Below are positions 12,397 to 19,343 of a stretch of 64,000 nt of DNA, in pieces (position 1 is the first letter of the stretch; each line of letters opens with the position of its first letter). Under the pieces are notes generated by a model. The model saw nothing but the letters and a program-made list of their open reading frames with translations, ran no database searches and was not told where the DNA came from. The stretch comes from a bacterium CG_4_9_14_3_um_filter_65_15. GTDB lineage: Bacteria > Krumholzibacteriota > Krumholzibacteriia > LZORAL124-64-63. The stretch lies in the NCBI GenBank assembly GCA_002790835.1, contig PFVX01000056.1, positions 24,508 through 88,507 on the forward strand, written 5' to 3'. The position numbers were made by a program, and so were the translations under genes.

Positions 12397-12751
12397 GGAT
12401 CCATTCCTTTCATTGCCGTTCAGCAATCAAATAGCAGGGAACGTGCCGACTTGAATGGGAAAATATCTTTTTAATTTACTTAAAATAAACGAGTTACCAG
12501 TAACCCAAAATCTCGGTGTCTCGGGCGTCCGCTCAGGTGGCTGATATCTGCACAGCGGGAATTGTTGGTTTTTTTGCTTTGGTTCGGCAGAAAACTGTCG
12601 AAAACCATCTCGACGTGGTGCGGAGGCCTGGAGGCCGCGGCCTTGTCCATAGGGGTTCCTCGCATGGGACGTCAGCGTTCTTGAAGCGATGGGAACCAGC
12701 AGCGGATGGAAGCGGGCCGATGGCCCCTCTCGAACGGGAAAGGATGCGGGC

Positions 12752-14671
12752 ATGAGCCAACGCAAGCCGATGTCAGGCAAGGCCGGGAAATCGGATCGAA
12801 AGGCCGGTGGCAAATCCAGGGGCAGGAAGCGGTCCCAGCAGGAAGGCTTCTCTGACTTCATGGACCTGGCCGAGGATGAGGATCCGGGTATGCCCGATGT
12901 TCCGGCCCCCGCTGCGACCGCTGGTGACGGCGGTACCGACACCGCCCCCAACAAACGGGGACCCGCTCGCATCGTCGTGACCGATCTTCATGGCCCGGCC
13001 TGGGCCTGGGGCCTGTGGCCAGCGGTCTGCACCCTGGTGGTCGGCGGGGCCATGGCCAGTGCCCTGCGGTTTCTTTACCACGGCCAATGGAACGTGCTGT
13101 GGGATTATTCAGGTCTGACGAATCTGCAAGGCCTGCTCGACCTCAACGCCTACCCGCAGAATGTCTTTCTGGCGGTGGTCATCATCGCGATCCTGCTGCT
13201 GGTCATGGTGGGTTACCGCCTCAGCAGCATCATCGGGGATCTGCAACGGCGAACCGTCGCCCAGGGAGAACTGTTGGGCCGACTGACGACTTTGCGTTTC
13301 GACAACCAGGCGGCCTGGCAGGACCCCCTGTTCAAGATGAACCCCAACGTCGAAACCTTCACCGCCGATCTCCTGGGCGCCTGGCGTCACCAGGCAGCCC
13401 GCATGGATCGTATGGCAGGCTTGGAGGGTGAGTGCCACCGCCTGGAGAAGGCGCTGAGCGAGGATTCCCGCGACGACCTGGCCGGGAACTTCTCGATCCC
13501 GGTGGTGAGTATGATCGCCGATGAGGTTCTGCAGCTGTTCGACGGCCGGGATGCGGCCATGGAGGACCAGGAGAGCCACCAGGCGAAATTGGGAAGCAGG
13601 GGCCATGACCTGATGGCGGACGTTCAGGATGCCCGCGGCTGGCAGCGCTACACCCAGGATCAACTGAACATGCAGGGCGATGCCGTGCTCAAAGCCAGCG
13701 CTCACCTCAACTCCGCAGGCACTCAGTTGGCCAAGGACCCCCGCTTCAGCTGGAAGCCGGAGGACGTGCTCGCTTTGCTGGCGGATCTCCGGGTGCAGCT
13801 TCAGGGCCGGGGCGCATCCGTCGCTCAACCCAAGGCGGACGGGGGCGCGGATTCGGACCTGCTGGATCGCCTCTCCAAGTTGAGTTTCCAGATCGGCATG
13901 GAAGTCGCCCGGTTGGGTAACCGCGGCGAACGCCTGGCGCCCATGGCCCAGACCCTGGAAGAGGTGGCCAAGGCCGTCCGGGCCCAGGGCATGGGTGGCG
14001 GAGCGCCCGGGGTCGTGCCCGCAAGCCTGACCAAACGACTGCAGGAGCAGATTTCCGCGTTCGAAAAAGCGGCCAAGCGTCCGGAGCGTCATTTGCCGAC
14101 ACTGGTGGTCAAGTTGGGCCAAACCGCCCGGGATGCCGCGGAAAACCTGGGCAAGATCGCCGACAGCTTCGAACCCCAGTACGAGCGCCTGGGTCGCATG
14201 GGCCAGGCTTGTGCCGAGTTGACCGGGGTGGAATTCGACGCCTCCCAGGCCATCGATTCCTCCGCCGGCGAACTGGAACTGAGCAATTACGATCCTTTCC
14301 TGCGGCAAGAGCCGGAGGAGGACATTCCCGTCATCGATCCTTTCCTCGAAAGATCCGACAACCTGACCGTGACCGAGGGCGGACTGGACCCGTTCGCCAT
14401 CTCCAACAACGTCTTGCCCGGCAGCGAGGATGAGTATGCCCAGGCTGCGGCGCCGGCATTTTCCCAGCCGAGCGAAACCGGGCTTCCTGACTCCGGGCAG
14501 AAGGTGTATGATCTTGCGGAATTCGGTGCCGTGAAATTGTCGGCGGATTCCCCCGCCGGCAGGGAAACGGTCCACGACCTGTCGGACTTCGGTGCGGTGC
14601 CCCTGGACCGCGCTGTGGGCGACGACAGGGTCTACGACCTGAGTGAATTCGGAGCGCGGCGCCTGGACTGA
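12752..14671 (+). CDS. Hypothetical membrane-anchored coiled-coil protein with C-terminal tandem short motifs
   Basis: Basic/acidic N-terminus, two predicted TM helices (WAWGLWPAVCTLVVGGAMA and FLAVVIIAILLLVMVGY), then a long helical region. Near the C-terminus there are 3x DPF motifs and 3x (V/Y)(Y/H)DLxEFGAxxL repeats. A possible alternative start is at 12689. Confidence 0.5.
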   Translation: MSQRKPMSGKAGKSDRKAGGKSRGRKRSQQEGFSDFMDLAEDEDPGMPDVPAPAATAGDGGTDTAPNKRGPARIVVTDLHGPAWAWGLWPAVCTLVVGGAMASALRFLYHGQWNVLWDYSGLTNLQGLLDLNAYPQNVFLAVVIIAILLLVMVGYRLSSIIGDLQRRTVAQGELLGRLTTLRFDNQAAWQDPLFKMNPNVETFTADLLGAWRHQAARMDRMAGLEGECHRLEKALSEDSRDDLAGNFSIPVVSMIADEVLQLFDGRDAAMEDQESHQAKLGSRGHDLMADVQDARGWQRYTQDQLNMQGDAVLKASAHLNSAGTQLAKDPRFSWKPEDVLALLADLRVQLQGRGASVAQPKADGGADSDLLDRLSKLSFQIGMEVARLGNRGERLAPMAQTLEEVAKAVRAQGMGGGAPGVVPASLTKRLQEQISAFEKAAKRPERHLPTLVVKLGQTARDAAENLGKIADSFEPQYERLGRMGQACAELTGVEFDASQAIDSSAGELELSNYDPFLRQEPEEDIPVIDPFLERSDNLTVTEGGLDPFAISNNVLPGSEDEYAQAAAPAFSQPSETGLPDSGQKVYDLAEFGAVKLSADSPAGRETVHDLSDFGAVPLDRAVGDDRVYDLSEFGARRLD

Positions 14672-14706: not shown

Positions 14707-15294
14707 ATGTCGGGTCCTGGAGAACTCGCGGCGATCCTGCAGGAATGGGACGACCGCCTGGAATCGGCTGCAACCGGCCGTGACCAGGCGGTCGCTTTTT
14801 CATTACCCGTGCCGGTTTCCGCGTTCGTGCGGATGGAACTGGCCTTGCTGGTGCTGATCAGGGAATCCGACGGGGCGCTGGCTGCCGATCTGCAACGTCT
14901 CGACCGTTCCCTGCGCGGGGTCCACGCAGCATTGGCCAGCGTGCCTCACCGCTGCACGCGGGAGTTGGTCCTGGCCTGTATCACCCTCGCCGATTTTCTC
15001 GAAGTGCTCGTGGGCCGCCAGGATGAAAGCGGCGGGGAGGCCTCTGTGGGCGATGACCCCGCCTGGTTGCAGCTCGCCGCCCGGTTCCAGCGCGCCGCCG
15101 GACCCTGCGGCGTCATGGATCTGTTGATGTCCGAGTTGGAGACCTGGACGACGCGCTGGGGCAGATCGGAACCCGATGCCGAGACGGAGCGCGACCTTGC
15201 CGCGCACTGGCGGCGCGTGCGCGAGTACGGCGACGCCCTGTTCGAGCAGGGCGTTCTGGATTCCCTCGGATTCCCACCCGGAAAAAATCGCTGA
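14707..15294 (+). CDS. Hypothetical protein (possibly co-operonic with the upstream membrane protein)
   Basis: The ORF begins 3 nt after the upstream stop. SD GAAAGG lies before the ATG at 14707. No known motifs. Confidence 0.4.
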   Translation: MSGPGELAAILQEWDDRLESAATGRDQAVAFSLPVPVSAFVRMELALLVLIRESDGALAADLQRLDRSLRGVHAALASVPHRCTRELVLACITLADFLEVLVGRQDESGGEASVGDDPAWLQLAARFQRAAGPCGVMDLLMSELETWTTRWGRSEPDAETERDLAAHWRRVREYGDALFEQGVLDSLGFPPGKNR

Positions 15295-15515
15295 TCCCCT
15301 ATTGCGTATTGCACGGTGAAAGAGGATCCGATGGTATCCTGCACCGTCTCACCGTCCCGCGAAGCCCGCGGTGATTCCCCGTAGCTACCGGTAATTCCTT
15401 CAGAAACCCCGATTGGTGTCGATATGAATACCATCCCCTGCCGGGCATGGGAGTTGCTGTTTCCCCGTTGGTGTCGTGGCACACAAGGTTCAGCAACTTG
15501 AGAGGAGACACCTCC

Positions 15516-15734
15516 ATGTCCGATTACAAGGTTCCGATGCCAATGTCCGGGGGAGACAATTTCCCGATGGCGGAGGTCATGACTTCGGTGGAAGCGGCGC
15601 AGTACCTGAAGATGCATGTCAAGACGGTTTGTCGCCTGGCCAAGGAAGGCAAGATCCCCGCCCGCAAGGTCGGCAGCGAATGGCGTTTCCTGCGCTCGGT
15701 GCTCGACGGTTGGTTGGCCGAATCTCTCGTGTGA
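15516..15734 (+). CDS. Excisionase-family helix-turn-helix DNA-binding protein
   Basis: MTSVEAAQYLKMHVKTVCRLAKEGKIPARKVGSEWRF matches the excisionase/MerR-type HTH_17 pattern. A strong SD GAGAGGAG precedes it. Confidence 0.65.
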   Translation: MSDYKVPMPMSGGDNFPMAEVMTSVEAAQYLKMHVKTVCRLAKEGKIPARKVGSEWRFLRSVLDGWLAESLV

Positions 15735-15744
15735 AAGAGGCGTC

Positions 15745-18042
15745 ATGGCCCTGCAGTTTCAACCTCTGAAGCTTCCCGCACCCGACCTGTTCGGCATCGG
15801 ACTGAACGGGTCGTACGGACGCGGCGACAAGACCCACCTGCTCGACCTGGCCCACAAGTGCCTGGCCAAGGACAAGCTGAAGGTCGTGGTCGATGTTTCG
15901 GAGTTGAAGAACCTGGGCGGCGGCGGTGCGGCGGCCTTCGCGGAATTCCAGTCCCTGCTGGTCGAGGCCGGTGGGGAGGCGGTGATTGTCGGTGCGCAGG
16001 ATGTCGTGCTCCGCTTCCTGACCGGAAAGTTCAAGGACCTGCCCCTCCGGCATTTTTCCGATGAAAAATCCGCAGTGGAAGCCCTCACTTCGCTGCCGGA
16101 CACCGCAAGGGAAAAGACAGCGACCGCCGTCGAGGAGGCCCCGGTCGCAGCGGACGACGAGATCGATTTGACGTCGTTCTGCGAAGAGGTGCCCGAACCG
16201 GAACCCCTCGCCGAGGTGGAGGAAGACGAGGACGCCACGAGCCTCGACGAAATCGGGGCGGAAGTGGGGGCGATCGGATTCTCCGCGGAGGAATTCGAAT
16301 TCGACGAGGCCGAGCCCGAGGATTCCACACCCGCCGTCGCGGATGATCCGGCGTCGGATGAGGCGCAGGAGTCGGTGAAGGAGTCGGTCCAGGAGTCGGC
16401 GGACACCACCGCTTCCGGTCGTCGCCGCGAACACAGTTACACTTCGTTGTCCGACGCCATCAGCGCCCTGGGCCGATGGTCGGCCTCCGGTTCGGACGGG
16501 GAATTCGGAAAATCCCTGGAGAACCTCCTGTTCAGCCACGGGCTGGCGGATTCGGCGACCTTCCTGGCGCGACGCGACGACTGCTACACAGACGGCGATG
16601 GACACTGGAGCATCGGGACCGACTGCAGTCTGGTGCGCCAGCTTTTCGATCGGCTGCAACCGCTGACCATTCTGGATATCCAGGACGAGGACCTCACGGA
16701 CCAGGAGGTCTCACTGCTCGAAGGCGTCACACCGGACATCATGTTGCCGGTCCAGAACGAGGGTGAGCCGGGGGCGATCCTCCTGCTCAAACGGGCCGAT
16801 GGCGAGGAGGAATACTCCGTCGTCGAGCACTTCGCCCTCGAACTGCTGATGCGGGTCCTGTCCGGGGAGGAGATGGGCGGATCGCCGGCCAAAGCGGACA
16901 AGGGGTCACCCGCTGTCGCGGCAGCCGATGAATCCGACGCTGATTTCCTGGAACAGGTGGCTTGGACCCGGCCGGCCGCGGGTGACGAAACGCAGGCCGA
17001 GGTGTTGCTCCGGCTGGCGCTCGACCTTCCCGATGCGGAGGATCGTCCCCACTTCTGGCGTATTTTCGCCCGGAACCTCTGGCCCATTCTGCCCATCTCC
17101 ACGCTGGCCTTCCTCGGTCCGGACAAACGTCGGGCGCCCATCATGGTGGGCCGCAACGACGCCTTGGCCGGCATCAACCTGGGCGTCAACCGACTGAAGG
17201 TCTATTTCCAAACCATGGAACGCCCCGTGGCCACGGGCAACCTGCCGGACTTTTTCAAGGACACCAAGTCGTCCCTGCTCGAGGCCGGCGTCGACTGGAT
17301 CATTTCCCTGCGCTGGGAAGACCACTACCTCGGCACGGCGTTCTTCAGCCTGGATGAGGAGTTCGAACAGGTCGAGGACGAGGTGGCCGAAGGAATCAAT
17401 GAACTGTTCGGCGAGACGGCACGCATGCTTTCCCGCTTCGACGATTCCCATGTGAACGCCGACAGCAATCTCGAGCTGGTCGCCATGCTTCTGGGGCAGC
17501 GGGAGAAACGGATGTTCGGCAGCGACGAACAGACGCATTCCATGGTGACTAACCTGCGACGCCTGGCACGGGCCATGGGGTTCCCACCCGACCAGGAGCG
17601 GGACCTGATCTACGGCTGCCTCCTGCGGGATGTCGGGCTCATCGACAAGGACGACGACCTGCTGGGTCCGCCCGAACAGCTGGATCCCGTGCAGTGGTCC
17701 CTTTACCGGCGCCACCCCGAAGAGGGCGCGCGGCTGCTGGAAAAAATGCGGATGTCACCGACTGTCATCGAGGTCGTGCGCCATCACCACGAGCGCTTCA
17801 GCGGGGACGGTTTTCCGGCCGGACTCGAGGGTCGTGAAATCCCTCTGTGTGCCCGGGTGGTCACCGTGGTGGAGAACTACGTCGCCATGGTCGTGGGGAC
17901 GACTGTGCGCGAGCCGGTCGCTCCGGAGGACGCCGCGCGGATCATGCTTGATAATCTGGGTCAGCGCTACGATCCGGACCTGGTGCAGCTTTTCCTGCGT
18001 GCGGTGATGCCGGACCCGGGGCGGGAGCCGGTCCGGGTTTGA
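15745..18042 (+). CDS. Multidomain signalling protein: STAS (anti-sigma antagonist-like) domain, acidic linker, GAF-like domains and a C-terminal degenerate HD-GYP domain
   Basis: N-terminal STAS-like fold, a roughly 100-aa Asp/Glu-rich linker, two GAF-like regions, and a C-terminus VRHHHERFSGDGFPAGL (HD-GYP signature with GDGFP). The HD motif reads LLRDVGL, so the catalytic His is replaced by Arg. It starts 11 nt after the HTH gene. Confidence 0.7.
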   Translation: MALQFQPLKLPAPDLFGIGLNGSYGRGDKTHLLDLAHKCLAKDKLKVVVDVSELKNLGGGGAAAFAEFQSLLVEAGGEAVIVGAQDVVLRFLTGKFKDLPLRHFSDEKSAVEALTSLPDTAREKTATAVEEAPVAADDEIDLTSFCEEVPEPEPLAEVEEDEDATSLDEIGAEVGAIGFSAEEFEFDEAEPEDSTPAVADDPASDEAQESVKESVQESADTTASGRRREHSYTSLSDAISALGRWSASGSDGEFGKSLENLLFSHGLADSATFLARRDDCYTDGDGHWSIGTDCSLVRQLFDRLQPLTILDIQDEDLTDQEVSLLEGVTPDIMLPVQNEGEPGAILLLKRADGEEEYSVVEHFALELLMRVLSGEEMGGSPAKADKGSPAVAAADESDADFLEQVAWTRPAAGDETQAEVLLRLALDLPDAEDRPHFWRIFARNLWPILPISTLAFLGPDKRRAPIMVGRNDALAGINLGVNRLKVYFQTMERPVATGNLPDFFKDTKSSLLEAGVDWIISLRWEDHYLGTAFFSLDEEFEQVEDEVAEGINELFGETARMLSRFDDSHVNADSNLELVAMLLGQREKRMFGSDEQTHSMVTNLRRLARAMGFPPDQERDLIYGCLLRDVGLIDKDDDLLGPPEQLDPVQWSLYRRHPEEGARLLEKMRMSPTVIEVVRHHHERFSGDGFPAGLEGREIPLCARVVTVVENYVAMVVGTTVREPVAPEDAARIMLDNLGQRYDPDLVQLFLRAVMPDPGREPVRV

Positions 18043-18823
18043 CGGGGCGGCTTCGGCGGGGTCCTCTCTCGCCGGACCGGTAGATGCGACCCAGTTCCAT
18101 GGCCAGGTCTTCCTGCGACAGTCCCCGCTTGATCCGTCCGTCGTGCACCACACTGATGGCGCGCGTTTCCTCCGAGACCACGATCACCACACAATCGCTC
18201 TGCTCGGAAATCCCGATGGCTGCCCGGTGGCGAGTGCCCAGCACGTAGCCGAGTTCCTCCTGCTCGGTGATGGGCAGGACGACGGCCGCCGCGGCGATCC
18301 GACCCTGGCTGATGATGACCGCCCCGTCGTGCAGGGGACCGGGCGGGGTGAACACCGTTTCCAGGGTGGCGGCGGTGATTTCGGCATCCAGCAACACGCC
18401 CTTCTGGATCCAGTCGCTGAGTTTCACCTCGCGCTCGATGACGATCAGGGCGCCCAGGCCGCGCTTGCTCAGCCGCTTGGCCGCCTGCAGGATTTCCTCT
18501 TCGGCGGGAATGCGGTCCACGGCCCGGAACATGCCCAGGCCGCGGCGCAGGCCCAGGTTGGTCAGGGCGGAGCGCAGCTCGGGCTGGAAGATGATGATGA
18601 AGGCCACGACCCAGACGGTCTTGAGGGTGCCGATGATGCTTCCGACCACGATCATGCGCAGGTTGGTGGCCAGGAAGGAGAGGATCAGCAGGAAGGCCAG
18701 GCCGGCGAACATCTGGATCACCCGCGTGTCCTTGATGAACACGATGAGGCGGTACAGCAGATACGCCACGATGATGATATCGAGGAGATCGATCAGGGGG
18801 CTTTGGATGATCTTGTTCCACAT
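17942..18823 (-). CDS. cdaA: Diadenylate cyclase CdaA (membrane-bound c-di-AMP synthase) with Pro/Ala-rich C-terminal tail
   Basis: Three N-terminal TM helices (LLDIIIVAYLLYRLIVFI...). DAC-domain motifs LHDGAVII and GTRHRAAIG. A low-complexity C-terminal tail of about 45 aa overlaps the 3' end of the convergent HD-GYP gene by about 100 bp. Confidence 0.85.
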   Translation of the reverse strand: MWNKIIQSPLIDLLDIIIVAYLLYRLIVFIKDTRVIQMFAGLAFLLILSFLATNLRMIVVGSIIGTLKTVWVVAFIIIFQPELRSALTNLGLRRGLGMFRAVDRIPAEEEILQAAKRLSKRGLGALIVIEREVKLSDWIQKGVLLDAEITAATLETVFTPPGPLHDGAVIISQGRIAAAAVVLPITEQEELGYVLGTRHRAAIGISEQSDCVVIVVSEETRAISVVHDGRIKRGLSQEDLAMELGRIYRSGERGPRRSRPVKPGPAPAPGPASPHAGKAAPGPDRSADPDYQA

Positions 18824-19343
18824 GATGGAAGCAAGGTATCACCGCCTCGATAGCGGAACAACAGGAGTTTGGCGCCTGACGGGCCACCAAGTCGGTATTC
18901 CAAGGCCACGAACCGGGGGCCATCTGCTGGCATGACCTGATGACCCATGATCCGGACCAGGCCGGCGGTTTCCACCGGGGCCTTCCGGGTTGGGCGATCC
19001 GGGAAATGGAATTTCCCAGGTTCCCGTCCTATTATACTTTCGCGAGCGGACCCGAGCTCTGGAACTCGGCGGCAAGGAACTGGTGGCTCCGAAGGACAGT
19101 CCGGGCCACGGGCGCTTCGCCGTCCTGCAGGACCCGCAGGACCCGCAGGATGCCGGTTTTCGCCGTGCATCAAGCGCAACAAGCCTGAGTGAGGGCGACA
19201 ATGCGCCCCCGACGAAATGGATTTGAGATGGGAAGAATCGCTTTGACCAAGAAGGACTGGCTGCTGGCTCTGGTGATCATCGCGGGCGCGGCGGCTCTGA
19301 TATCGGCACTGTCCATGTAGATCGCGGGGCCGGGCGTCCTCTC

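What the first reader, a model, noticed from the sequence alone, without database searches (positions are those of the whole stretch)
15516..18042. Excisionase-type HTH gene coupled to a STAS-GAF protein whose C-terminal HD-GYP domain is degenerate (HD->RD, GYP->GFP)
Seen in sequence:
- An HTH_17-like 72-aa protein with a strong SD.
- Eleven nucleotides later, an 765-aa protein begins: STAS-like N-domain, a 100-aa acidic disordered linker, GAF-like domains, then HHHERFSGDGFPAGL.
- The upstream HD position reads LLRDVGL.

Established knowledge: the HD dyad His is needed for HD-GYP phosphodiesterase metal binding. Degenerate HD-GYP domains can act as c-di-GMP receptors.

Inference: this may be a partner-switching (STAS) c-di-GMP sensor, possibly controlling the adjacent small DNA-binding protein rather than degrading c-di-GMP.
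Basis: partly seen in the sequence, partly recalled or inferred. Interest (0 to 1): 0.6.

Follow-up and report, generated by a model that had tools for sequence, protein, structure and literature searches.

The report
Small DNA-binder paired with dead HD-GYP sensor
A two-gene operon conserved across the uncultured phylum Krumholzibacteriota pairs an almost invariant 72-residue DNA-binding protein with a large sensor protein whose c-di-GMP-phosphodiesterase-like domain has lost its catalytic residues in every member, so it probably signals by binding partners rather than by degrading a messenger.

Summary
A 72-aa HTH_17/excisionase-type gene (15516-15734) is followed after 10 nt by a 765-aa gene (15745-18042). 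That protein is STAS, then a 107-aa acidic disordered linker, two GAF domains and an HD-GYP-fold domain.

The HD position reads RD in 98/98 family members. The catalytic Lys is Leu. PmGH ligands E185, H189 and D305 are Gly, variable and Glu. D222, H250, H276 and H277 are invariant or nearly so. This is a selected pseudo-phosphodiesterase, not decay.

GYP->GFP is not degeneracy, because the active enzyme PA4781 also has GFP.

The HTH gene precedes the big gene in 40/40 related loci and in four much more distant ones. There it stays 77-85% identical while the big protein falls to 25-36%.

New findings:
- A conserved sigma-54 promoter (15444-15458).
- A conserved leader element.
- A wider STAS-linked 'RD-GYP' clade.
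- In distant relatives, a fully canonical REC-HD-GYP gene immediately downstream.

Classical STAS partner switching is not supported: the phospho-Ser position is Gly, and no kinase or phosphatase is nearby. c-di-GMP reception is untested, and this lineage has lost most c-di-GMP contact residues.

Verdict: new variant of a known kind, moderately interesting.

The parts
15444..15458 (+). Sigma-54-type promoter GGCATGGGAGTTGCT (GG-N10-GC; -24/-12 elements), about 57 nt before the HTH start codon
   Evidence: This is the only match to GGCAYN5TTGCW in the 64 kb window (chance expectation 0.58, so not significant alone). The same pattern sits at the equivalent place in 41 related loci and is almost the only hit in each. 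Remote loci L046 and L049 have it too. No sigma-70-like promoter was found in 15200-19000.
15470..15485 (+). Conserved leader element GGTGTCGTGGCACACA, with core GTGGCACAC at 15476. In most relatives it is a near-palindrome, GTGATGTG-GCA-CGCATC(A/G)C.
   Evidence: The 9-mer GTGGCAC[GA]C lies at a fixed distance (125-142 nt before the YLKMHVKT codons) in 30 loci plus the window. There are only 7 other hits in 676 kb. RNAalifold finds no common structure, and the hairpin arms differ between clades. Its function is unknown; it may be an operator.
15500..15509 (+). Shine-Dalgarno region GAGAGGAGAC of the HTH gene
   Evidence: Seen in the sequence. AGGAG is conserved in all aligned loci.
15516..15734 (+). 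72-aa stand-alone excisionase/MerR-type HTH (HTH_17) DNA-binding protein
   Evidence: Pfam HTH_17 E=1.1e-13. TIGR01764 is passed and the BldC subfamily cutoff is not met. The nearest solved relative is BldC 6ama, weakly (E=0.16). 477 homologues were found; the top 120 are 71-98 aa (100 of them exactly 72 aa) and at least 69% identical. The gene is present upstream of the big gene in 40/40 loci.
15735..15744 (+). 10-nt spacer AAGAGGCGTC holding the SD of the second gene (likely translational coupling)
   Evidence: In 15 related loci the gap is 3-14 nt; in most of the others it is about 50-130 nt.
15745..16098 (+). STAS domain (aa 1-118) with an invariant G58-G59-x-G61-A62 loop in place of SpoIIAA's DSSG
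   Evidence: AF2 pLDDT is above 90. Foldseek matches SpoIIAA 1thn_B with TM 0.82.
16102..16422 (+). Acidic intrinsically disordered linker (aa 120-226)
   Evidence: pLDDT is 30-37. Residues 113-224 are 33% D+E and 3% K+R, and this part of the family alignment is gap-rich and unconserved.
16447..16860 (+). GAF domain 1 (aa 235-372)
16993..17430 (+). GAF domain 2 (aa 417-562), preceded by a disordered stretch at aa 377-410
   Evidence: GAF_2 is hit in 12/38 family members.
17455..18006 (+). HD-GYP-fold domain (aa 571-754) with a remodelled active site. Key codons: R628-D629 at 17626-17631, L632, H657, H681-H682-E683 at 17785-17793, G689-F690-P691 at 17809-17817, E710, V713.
   Evidence: HD_5 E=5.6e-26. 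Alignments to 5z7c, 4r8z, 4mcw and 3tm8. MAFFT alignment with canonical HD-GYPs. Residue counts in 98 homologues. Foldseek top hit is PmGH 4mcw.
17942..18823 (-). Convergent cdaA (diadenylate cyclase) whose 3' end overlaps the big ORF by 101 nt. It is a neighbour, not shown to be part of the module.
   Evidence: Pfam DAC E=7e-41 and CdaA_N. cdaA is convergent downstream in about 30 of 45 loci. It lies in a cdaA-folP-ftsH block in the remote loci L046 and L049.
12689..14671 (+). Conserved upstream neighbour: a 660-aa protein with no Pfam or NCBIfam match (hydrophobic, putatively membrane-spanning stretches near the N-terminus, judged by eye). It has three C-terminal copies of a short motif: KVYDLAEFGAVKL, TVHDLSDFGAVPL and RVYDLSEFGARRL (14501-14665).
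   Evidence: No Pfam or NCBIfam hit. Syntenic in about 38 loci. The motif [KRE]V[YFH][DE]LxxFGA occurs in 2-5 copies in essentially all loci, and also upstream in remote locus L049. A link to the operon is inferred from synteny only.

Best explanation
This is a sigma-54-dependent two-gene operon. It is conserved throughout Candidatus Krumholzibacteriota and in unnamed, more distant lineages.

Gene 1 encodes a 72-aa stand-alone excisionase/MerR-type (BldC-like) HTH protein that is nearly invariant.

Gene 2 encodes a soluble signalling protein with this architecture: non-phosphorylatable STAS, acidic disordered linker, GAF, GAF, and an HD-GYP-fold domain.

In that HD-GYP-fold domain, several residues essential in PmGH are replaced. 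The HD histidine is Arg and the catalytic Lys is Leu. Three further PmGH metal ligands are changed (E185 to Gly, H189 to variable residues, D305 to Glu), and D308 is Val. The other four PmGH metal ligands (D222, H250, H276, H277), the Glu that follows them and the G-x-G-[FY]-P loop are kept.

The most likely reading is that the large protein is a pseudo-phosphodiesterase. It would sense a signal through its GAF domains and/or the residual metal-nucleotide pocket and pass it on by protein-protein contact, not by hydrolysis. Its most probable target is its obligate genomic partner, the small DNA-binding protein. In lineages that have one, the canonical REC-HD-GYP enzyme encoded next door is a second likely target.

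Shown: the architecture, the residue replacements and their conservation, the synteny, and the conservation of the promoter motif.

Inferred: loss of catalysis (from PmGH mutagenesis), a physical or functional link to the HTH protein, and the identity of the signal.
For: Architecture.

Active site: R628 aligns with the HD histidine of four solved HD-GYP proteins. In 98 homologues the PmGH positions read as follows:
- H221->R, 98/98
- K225->L, 96/98
- E185->G, 98/98
- H189->L/M/V/Q
- D305->E, 93/98
- D308->V, 85/98
- D222 kept in 96/98
- H250, H276, H277 and E278 kept in 98/98

In PmGH, the H189A, H221A, K225A and D308A mutants each essentially abolish c-di-GMP hydrolysis (PMC4159591).

Selection rather than decay: the same RD signature defines a wider clade, 56 of the 150 best 50%-identity representatives. 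It is tied to STAS: 37/42 full-length RD proteins have STAS, against 2/52 HD proteins.

In remote loci the RD protein sits directly beside a REC-HD-GYP with fully canonical LHDIGK / HHERxDGRGYP / DAFDAMTxxRxY motifs. The differences are therefore paralogue-specific.

Partnership with the HTH:
- The HTH gene is immediately upstream in 40/40 loci and in 4/4 remote loci.
- In the remote loci it is 77-85% identical while the big protein is 25-36% identical.
- The spacer is 3-14 nt in 15 loci.

Sigma-54 promoter.

Precedent: catalytically inactive HD-GYP domains that act through protein-protein interactions include HnoD, RpfG and ECA3548 (preprint 10.1101/2021.11.05.467447).
Against: - No binding or activity data exist for any member.
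- Inactivity is extrapolated from Ala mutants of one enzyme. An Arg or Glu could in principle support a different metal arrangement.
- Strict synteny shows a functional link but not physical contact. No HTH-STAS fusion protein was found.
- The HTH could simply autoregulate the operon.
- The window lineage has no adjacent REC-HD-GYP, and no GGDEF, EAL or second HD-GYP motif was found in 64 kb by regex. A c-di-GMP context is therefore not demonstrated for this genome.
- No enhancer-binding protein gene was found in the window or in the flanks.
Confidence: 0.5

Rival explanations
1. The degenerate HD-GYP domain is a c-di-GMP receptor. The STAS domain works as a partner-switching module that controls the small DNA-binding protein.
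For: - Inactive HD-GYP, GGDEF and EAL domains often keep ligand binding.
- D222, H250, H276, H277, the following Glu and the G-x-G-[FY]-P loop are invariant or nearly so.
- PmGH still bound c-di-GMP with only one metal site occupied.
- Remote RD-GYP relatives keep an RPY[RK]-like motif and sit next to a canonical REC-HD-GYP. This places the family in a c-di-GMP setting.
- The HTH pairing is strict.
Against: - In this lineage the c-di-GMP contact residues of PmGH are mostly replaced. R314 becomes T/D, K317 is R in only 53/98, Y285 becomes F in 87/98, and K235 is probably G/variable.
- The STAS residue equivalent to phospho-Ser58 of SpoIIAA is Gly (85/98), and G58 and G59 are invariant.
- No HATPase-type kinase or PP2C phosphatase domain appears among the Pfam-scanned or annotated flanking genes.
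- No GGDEF motif was found in the window.
Confidence: 0.2
2. An HnoD-like modulator. The pseudo-HD-GYP protein mainly binds and tunes a catalytically active HD-GYP phosphodiesterase. That enzyme is the REC-HD-GYP encoded next door in distant relatives and would be encoded elsewhere in this genome. The HTH protein would be an independent regulator, for example an autoregulator of the operon.
For: - Four remote loci have the order HTH, then STAS..RD-GYP, then canonical REC-HD-GYP.
- HnoD, with degenerate HD and HHE motifs, does not hydrolyse c-di-GMP and inhibits its hydrolysis in Shewanella (preprint).
Against: - No REC-HD-GYP was found in the 64 kb window or in the 45 Krumholzibacteriia loci with +/-6 kb flanks; this was not tested exhaustively.
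- The HTH, not the REC-HD-GYP, is the universally retained neighbour.
Confidence: 0.2
3. The domain is still an enzyme. It would be a hydrolase with a non-canonical mono- or binuclear site, in which Arg628 replaces one metal or acts in catalysis. It might act on another nucleotide such as pGpG, cGAMP or c-di-AMP, given the adjacent cdaA.
For: - Four of the eight PmGH metal ligands plus Glu710 are conserved.
- HD-GYP enzymes with fewer ligands (binuclear subfamily) are active.
- cdaA is convergent downstream in about 30/45 loci.
- The model also resembles the PgpH HD domain, a c-di-AMP phosphodiesterase (Foldseek E=1.6e-4).
Against: - H221A, H189A, K225A and D308A each abolish PmGH activity. 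All four positions are replaced here.
- To my knowledge no active HD-superfamily phosphohydrolase lacks the HD histidine (from memory, not checked in the literature).
- cdaA belongs to a cdaA-folP-ftsH housekeeping block in remote loci, so the adjacency may only reflect inherited gene order.
Confidence: 0.08
4. The HTH gene is an excisionase of a mobile element, and its position next to the big gene is incidental.
For: It matches the 'excisionase family' models PF12728 and TIGR01764.
Against: - The same chromosomal synteny is found in 40/40 loci across a phylum and in remote lineages.
- No integrase domain appears among the Pfam-scanned or annotated flanking genes.
- Sequence conservation is extreme, and the gene has a dedicated sigma-54 promoter.
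Confidence: 0.02

Closest known systems
PmGH of Persephonella marina (GAF-HD-GYP c-di-GMP phosphodiesterase, PDB 4MCW)
   Same: It is the best structural match of the full-length model, with 360 aligned columns covering GAF plus HD-GYP. The shared sequence features are the HHE motif, the G-x-G-[YF]-P loop, the I-P-L..AR motif, and ligands D222, H250, H276 and H277.
   Different: The family studied here adds an N-terminal STAS, an acidic disordered linker and a second GAF. It also replaces H221, K225, E185, H189, D305 and D308. PmGH is an active tri-iron enzyme (PMC4159591).
Catalytically inactive HD-GYP regulators: HnoD of Shewanella oneidensis, RpfG of Xanthomonas, ECA3548; also PA2572 'YN-GYP' of P. 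aeruginosa (the last from memory)
   Same: These have an HD-GYP fold with a substituted active site and act through protein-protein interactions rather than hydrolysis (preprint 10.1101/2021.11.05.467447). In remote relatives of this family an active-looking REC-HD-GYP is encoded next door. That parallels HnoD, which is reported to inhibit c-di-GMP hydrolysis.
   Different: Those proteins carry REC or PilZ-type N-termini, not STAS-GAF-GAF. Their substitutions differ: HnoD has HD->SE and HHE->QLE, whereas here only the HD-histidine side is changed and HHE is intact. None is known to be paired with an HTH_17 gene. The STAS-HD-GYP architecture does not appear in that survey (0 occurrences of 'STAS').
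SpoIIAA/RsbV-type anti-anti-sigma STAS partner switching, and the SiaC-SiaD system of P. aeruginosa (PMC8457831)
   Same: The STAS fold is shared: profile E=5e-6 to SpoIIAA and TM 0.82 to 1thn_B. A binding partner activating a c-di-GMP enzyme has a precedent in SiaC and SiaD. That SiaC is STAS-like is from memory.
   Different: The phosphorylatable Ser is Gly in most members. The STAS is fused to the sensor rather than free-standing. No kinase/anti-sigma or PP2C phosphatase gene is nearby.
BldC of Streptomyces (small MerR-like DNA-binding protein without an effector domain, PDB 6AMA/6AMK)
   Same: Both are about 70 aa, stand-alone, with the same HTH-wing type. BldC is the only solved relative found.
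   Different: The similarity is weak (E=0.16). The NCBIfam BldC subfamily cutoff is not met (21 against 77 bits). The Krumholzibacteriota protein has its own conserved N-terminal tail (IYIGG[ED]) and an obligate partner gene.
PA4781 of P. aeruginosa (REC-HD-GYP, PDB 4R8Z)
   Same: It is the best-scoring solved HD-GYP domain after V-cGAP3, and it also reads G-F-P instead of G-Y-P.
   Different: PA4781 keeps HD and the Lys (LLHDIGK) and is catalytically active.

Membership tests
HD-GYP domain (class II c-di-GMP phosphodiesterase) | Sequence and fold homology to the HD-GYP domain | tested here: met
   Pfam HD_5 E=5.6e-26 and HD E=4.9e-7. phmmer hits to 5z7c, 4r8z, 4mcw and 3tm8. Foldseek hits to 4mcw, 4r8z, 9rbz and 3tm8.
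HD-GYP domain (class II c-di-GMP phosphodiesterase) | HD dyad: the His (PmGH H221) and Asp (D222) that bind metal | tested here: not met
   The His is Arg628 in 98/98 homologues. The Asp is kept in 96/98.
HD-GYP domain (class II c-di-GMP phosphodiesterase) | The other metal ligands: H189, H250, H276, H277, D305 (plus or minus E185) | tested here: not met
   H250, H276 and H277 are kept in 98/98. H189 becomes L/M/V/Q, D305 becomes E (93/98) and E185 becomes G (98/98).
HD-GYP domain (class II c-di-GMP phosphodiesterase) | Essential non-ligand residues K225, D183 and D308 (Ala mutants are inactive in PmGH) | tested here: not met
   K225->L in 96/98, D183->C/S/M, and D308->V in 85/98. Mutant data are from PMC4159591.
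HD-GYP domain (class II c-di-GMP phosphodiesterase) | HHE..G.GYP motif | tested here: met
   HHE, G and P are invariant. The central residue is F in 87/98 and Y in 11/98. The active enzyme PA4781 also has GFP.
HD-GYP domain (class II c-di-GMP phosphodiesterase) | c-di-GMP (or cGAMP) hydrolysis | not testable with these tools
   This needs an enzyme assay. Predicted absent from the substitutions above.
SpoIIAA/RsbV-type anti-anti-sigma factor (partner switching) | STAS fold | tested here: met
   38/38 members hit STAS_2. The family profile hits SpoIIAA at E=5e-6. TM 0.82 to 1thn_B.
SpoIIAA/RsbV-type anti-anti-sigma factor (partner switching) | Phosphorylatable Ser/Thr at the SpoIIAA Ser58 position | tested here: not met
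   It aligns with Gly60: G in 85/98, S in 8/98, A in 4/98. The flanking G58, G59 and A62 are invariant.
SpoIIAA/RsbV-type anti-anti-sigma factor (partner switching) | Cognate kinase/anti-sigma factor and PP2C phosphatase encoded nearby | tested here: not met
   None is among the neighbours scanned in the window or annotated in the remote loci. The rest of the genome was not available.
GAF domain | GAF alpha/beta fold | tested here: met
Excisionase-family / MerR-type HTH (PF12728, TIGR01764) | Match to the domain model above its cutoff | tested here: met
   HTH_17 scores 51.6 bits against 27. TIGR01764 scores 48.1 against 28.8.
Excisionase (recombination directionality factor) | Association with an integrase or mobile element | tested here: not met
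   The chromosomal synteny is fixed in 44 loci. No integrase domain appears among the Pfam-scanned or annotated flanking genes.
BldC family transcriptional regulator (NF033787) | Score above the subfamily cutoff | tested here: not met
   21 bits against a cutoff of 77. phmmer to 6ama gives E=0.16.
Sigma-54-dependent promoter | -24 GG and -12 GC elements with TGGCAC-N5-TTGC spacing, conserved in position | tested here: met
   GGCATGGGAGTTGCT at 15444-15458. The pattern is at the same place in 41 loci.
Sigma-54-dependent promoter | Cognate enhancer-binding protein / rpoN in the genome | tested here: inconclusive
   No GAFTGA motif was found in the 64 kb window, and only one in the 45 flanks. The rest of the genome was not available.

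The most novel reading that the evidence does not exclude
The Arg-for-His, Leu-for-Lys HD-GYP domain may be a dedicated non-hydrolysing receptor for a cyclic or linear dinucleotide, with Arg628 taking over phosphate contact from the lost metal. Ligand binding, integrated with the GAF inputs, would make the STAS-GAF-GAF-RD-GYP protein capture or release the ultra-conserved 72-aa BldC-like DNA-binding protein. That would be a new class of second-messenger-controlled transcription switch, sigma-54-driven and master-regulator-like, in an uncultured phylum.
Probability: 0.18. Interest if true: 0.7.

Novelty: new variant of a known kind. Interest (0 to 1): 0.5.

Why it matters
Catalytically dead GGDEF and EAL domains are well-studied receptors and scaffolds. 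Dead HD-GYP domains are known from only a handful of cases.

This family is large and under strong purifying selection. It has a single, sharply defined active-site remodelling (RD...L...E), a fixed STAS-GAF-GAF front end and an obligate small DNA-binding partner. That gives a clean system for asking what a pseudo-HD-GYP does.

The partner HTH is one of the most conserved small proteins of Krumholzibacteriota and is driven by a sigma-54 promoter, which suggests a central regulatory role in a phylum with no cultured representative.

The practical consequence is for annotation. 'HD-GYP domain-containing protein (c-di-GMP phosphodiesterase class II)' labels on these genes probably overstate their function. 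Counts of c-di-GMP phosphodiesterases in such genomes should exclude them.

Tried and rejected
- Rfam scan of the whole window at gathering thresholds gave no RNA family, so no riboswitch sits in the leader.
- RNAalifold on 38 leader sequences gave no consensus structure. Single-sequence folds show hairpins around GTGGCAC, but with different arms in different clades. I therefore do not call it an RNA element.
- Regex scans for an enhancer-binding protein (GAFTGA), GGDEF, EAL or a second HD-GYP found none in the window and essentially none in the flanks.
- A search for HTH-STAS fusion proteins as Rosetta-stone evidence found none.
- I could not name the taxa of the remote RD-GYP clade. No source names came from cluster look-ups or from a third homology search.
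- The upstream 660-aa and 206-aa proteins have no Pfam or NCBIfam hit. BLASTP found no homology to the REC-containing upstream genes of the remote loci.
- The sigma-70 promoter scan found nothing, and the terminator scan found nothing above background.
- The alternative long ORF start at 15616 (808 aa) was rejected. It overlaps the HTH gene in another frame, and all homologues start at the Met of 15745.
- The ATG at 15447 as the HTH start was rejected because it lies inside the sigma-54 promoter.
- A literature search found no paper linking Krumholzibacteriota, STAS and HD-GYP.

Full report
**Observation**

- ORF 15516-15734 (+) encodes a 72-aa protein. It matches Pfam HTH_17 (E=1.1e-13) and passes NCBIfam TIGR01764 'excisionase family DNA-binding'.
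- It is preceded by GAGAGGAGAC. Its TGA ends at 15734.
- After a 10-nt spacer (AAGAGGCGTC, not 11 nt) the ATG at 15745 opens a 765-aa ORF that ends at 18042.
- The longer 808-aa reading from 15616 overlaps the HTH gene in another frame. No homologue uses it.

**Anatomy of the large protein**

Pfam on the query alone finds HD_5 (E=5.6e-26), HD, and only sub-threshold STAS. Family-level and structural evidence settles the rest.
- STAS: all 38 aligned homologues hit STAS_2 (best E=4e-11). A profile of the N-terminus hits SpoIIAA 1auz at E=5e-6.
- Full-length AlphaFold2 model:
  - confident STAS at 1-118 (pLDDT above 90)
  - disordered 120-226
  - two alpha/beta domains at 235-372 and 417-562, separated by a second disordered stretch (377-410)
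  - a helical domain at 571-754
- Whole-protein Foldseek puts PmGH (GAF-HD-GYP) first, followed by PA4781, DvhD and Bd1817. It matches the N-terminus to SpoIIAA with TM 0.82.
- The linker (residues 113-224) is 33% Asp+Glu and 3% Lys+Arg.

**The active site**

- LLRDVGL aligns column-for-column with LLHDIGK of V-cGAP3 (5z7c), PA4781 (4r8z) and PmGH (4mcw), and with LLHDYGH of Bd1817 (3tm8). HHHERFSGDGFP aligns with their HHE..G.GYP, and VENYVAM with (A/S)D.(F/Y)D(A/E)L.
- A MAFFT alignment with canonical HD-GYPs extends this to the N-terminal ligands.
- Counts over 98 full-length homologues, in PmGH numbering:
  - D183->C/S/M
  - E185->G (98/98)
  - H189->L/M/V/Q
  - H221->R (98/98)
  - D222 kept (96/98)
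  - K225->L (96/98)
  - H250, H276, H277 and E278 kept (98/98)
  - Y285->F (87) or Y (11)
  - D305->E (93)
  - D308->V (85)
  - R314->T/D
  - K317->R in only 53
- In PmGH, Ala substitutions of H189, H221, D222, H250, H276, H277, D183, K225 and D308 essentially abolish c-di-GMP hydrolysis. GYP-motif mutants keep activity. The bridging hydroxide of the metal pair next to H221 is the proposed nucleophile (PMC4159591).
- So four of the eight PmGH metal ligands, together with the catalytic Lys, are changed, and the other four are strictly kept.
- This is a conserved remodelling, not erosion.
- GYP->GFP is not part of the defect, because PA4781 reads GFP and is active.

**Family and distribution**

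- A word-indexed search found about 104 full-length homologues at 38-100% identity. Wherever they are named, the names are Candidatus Krumholzibacteriota/-ia.
- A genome-collection scan gave 45 species-level loci. Most are labelled Krumholzibacteriia. A few are labelled 'uncultured Fibrobacteraceae', 'Gemmatimonadales' or 'bacterium'.
- An exhaustive HMMER search of 1.84 billion representatives, followed by motif inspection, shows that the RD signature defines a wider clade (YG[TA]VLRD[IV]GM ... HHHE.[FY]NGEGYP).
- 56 of the best 150 representatives have RD and 52 have canonical HD.
- STAS is present in 37 of 42 full-length RD proteins but in only 2 of 52 HD proteins.
- STAS plus RD-GYP is therefore an evolutionary unit. 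Pfam confirms STAS, GAF and HD_5 in several remote members.

**The partner gene and its control**

- tblastn finds the HTH gene directly upstream of the large gene in 40 of 40 loci that have upstream DNA. It is 64-86% identical there, against 33-64% for the large protein.
- In four remote loci (L046, L049, L050, L052) the order is again HTH_17 then STAS..RD-GYP. The HTH is still 77-85% identical while the large protein is 25-36% identical.
- More than 45 of the 72 positions are at least 90% conserved among the 100 members of exactly 72 aa. These include an N-terminal IYIGG[ED] tail, which has diverged in the window's own sublineage.
- The nearest solved relative is BldC, weakly.
- Upstream of the HTH gene, every locus carries GGCAY-N5-TTGCW, a sigma-54 -24/-12 promoter. 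In the window it is at 15444-15458. It is the only match in 64 kb and sits at the equivalent position in 41 loci. L046 and L049 have it as well.
- No sigma-70-like promoter was found.
- Between the promoter and the SD lies a second conserved element with the core GTGGCAC[GA]C. It is at a fixed distance in 30 loci plus the window, against 7 other hits in 676 kb. It has no consistent RNA fold, so an operator is plausible but untested.

**Remote relatives add a canonical enzyme**

- In L046, L049, L050 and L052 the gene immediately after the RD-GYP gene encodes a REC-HD-GYP with LHDIGK, HHERxDGRGYP and DAFDAMTxxRxY, the full canonical set.
- This side-by-side contrast shows that the RD version is a specialised paralogue. 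It also recalls HnoD, a degenerate HD-GYP reported to inhibit c-di-GMP hydrolysis.
- The window has no such gene within 64 kb by motif scan.

- Partner switching: SpoIIAA phospho-Ser58 (established knowledge) aligns with Gly60. The loop is G58-G59-G60-G61-A62, with G58, G59 and A62 invariant. Position 60 is Gly in 85/98 and Ser in only 8/98.
- No kinase, anti-sigma or PP2C domain appears among the Pfam-scanned or annotated flanking genes. Phosphorylation-driven partner switching is therefore not supported. The STAS may still be a docking module.
- c-di-GMP reception is possible: PmGH binds c-di-GMP with one metal, and inactive domains often bind it.
- It is not supported by sequence in this lineage, however, because most PmGH contact residues are replaced. 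Remote members keep an RPY[RK]-like motif.

**Most likely mechanism**

I read the locus as a sigma-54-driven operon. Its large product is a pseudo-phosphodiesterase sensor or scaffold. It would integrate GAF inputs and perhaps a residual metal-nucleotide pocket, and act by protein-protein contact.
- Its most probable target is the co-encoded, stoichiometrically coupled DNA-binding protein.
- Where a REC-HD-GYP is present next door, that enzyme is a likely second target.
- Loss of catalysis I rate at about 0.8, a functional link to the HTH at about 0.65, and direct binding at about 0.35-0.4.
- Rivals are listed separately: the c-di-GMP receptor with partner switch, a pure HnoD-like modulator, a still-active atypical hydrolase, and a mobile-element excisionase.

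**Comparison and novelty**

- Inactive HD-GYP regulators are a known kind (HnoD, RpfG, ECA3548).
- GAF-HD-GYP is a known architecture (PmGH).
- New here are five things: the invariant RD/L/E signature, its tight coupling to a non-phosphorylatable STAS, the tandem GAF plus acidic linker, the obligate BldC-like partner, and the sigma-54 promoter.
- The survey of HD-GYP architectures does not mention STAS. The literature search found no description of this family.
- I classify it as a new variant of a known kind, with moderate interest.

**Neighbours**

- cdaA (17942-18823, minus strand) converges on the large gene and overlaps it by 101 nt. It recurs downstream in about 30/45 loci.
- In remote loci it belongs to a cdaA-folP-ftsH block, so inherited gene order is the simplest explanation.
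- The upstream 660-aa protein is syntenic in most loci. It carries 2-5 C-terminal copies of a short motif, [KRE]V[YFH][DE]LxxFGA, whose role is unknown.

Noticed in passing
window 15444-15458 (+): A sigma-54-type promoter, GGCATGGGAGTTGCT, lies about 57 nt upstream of the HTH start. The same GGCAY-N5-TTGCW pattern is conserved at the same position in 41 related loci. No enhancer-binding protein gene was found in the window.
   Followed up: yes
window 15470-15485 (+): A conserved leader element with core GTGGCAC[GA]C lies between the sigma-54 promoter and the SD. In most relatives it is a near-palindrome, GTGATGTG-GCA-CGCATCAC. It sits at a fixed distance in 30 loci and has no common RNA structure. 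It could be an operator, perhaps for the HTH protein itself.
   Followed up: partly
window 12689-14671 (+), repeats at 14501-14665: The upstream 660-aa protein has no Pfam or NCBIfam hit. It ends in three copies of a short motif: KVYDLAEFGAVKL, TVHDLSDFGAVPL and RVYDLSEFGARRL. The motif occurs 2-5 times in the syntenic gene of essentially all related loci, and also upstream in remote locus L049 (1585-1700). It looks like a repeated docking motif.
   Followed up: partly
window 17942-18823 (-), overlap 17942-18042: The diadenylate cyclase gene cdaA converges on the large gene, and the two ORFs overlap by 101 nt at their 3' ends. cdaA is downstream in about 30/45 loci. In remote loci it is part of a cdaA-folP-ftsH block on the opposite strand.
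   Followed up: partly
L046 8078-9763, L049 7232-8827, L050 7318-9132, L052 7958-9454: In distant relatives, a REC-HD-GYP gene with fully canonical HD, K, HHE, GYP and DxxD..RxY motifs directly follows the RD-GYP gene. In L049, L050 and L052 a REC-containing gene precedes the HTH gene (with a weak CheW match in L050). Neither was found in the window.
   Followed up: partly
window 17617-17619 (Cys625) and 17512-17514 (Met590; Cys in 58/98 homologues): A near-invariant Cys immediately precedes LLRD (GCLLRD). A second Cys often occupies the position of PmGH D183. Both would lie near the remodelled metal site, which hints at altered metal or redox chemistry.
   Followed up: no
window 15516-15580 (HTH N-terminal tail): Most family members have a conserved N-terminal tail, M.DY.DSSRIYIGGED. 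The window's protein and its closest relative (L001) have a diverged tail (MSDYKVPMPMSGGDNF), while the HTH core is unchanged.
   Followed up: partly
L002, L017, L031, L036, L037, L040, L044 (labelled 'uncultured Fibrobacteraceae'); L021 (labelled 'Gemmatimonadales'): Several MAGs carrying this Krumholzibacteriia-type locus, with the same synteny and 34-64% identity, have other taxon labels in their records. These are probably binning or classification artefacts.
   Followed up: no
window 4902-4915 (+): This is the only other relaxed sigma-54-like match (GGCACCTTCATTGC) in the window. It lies inside overlapping ORFs and is probably a chance match.
   Followed up: no
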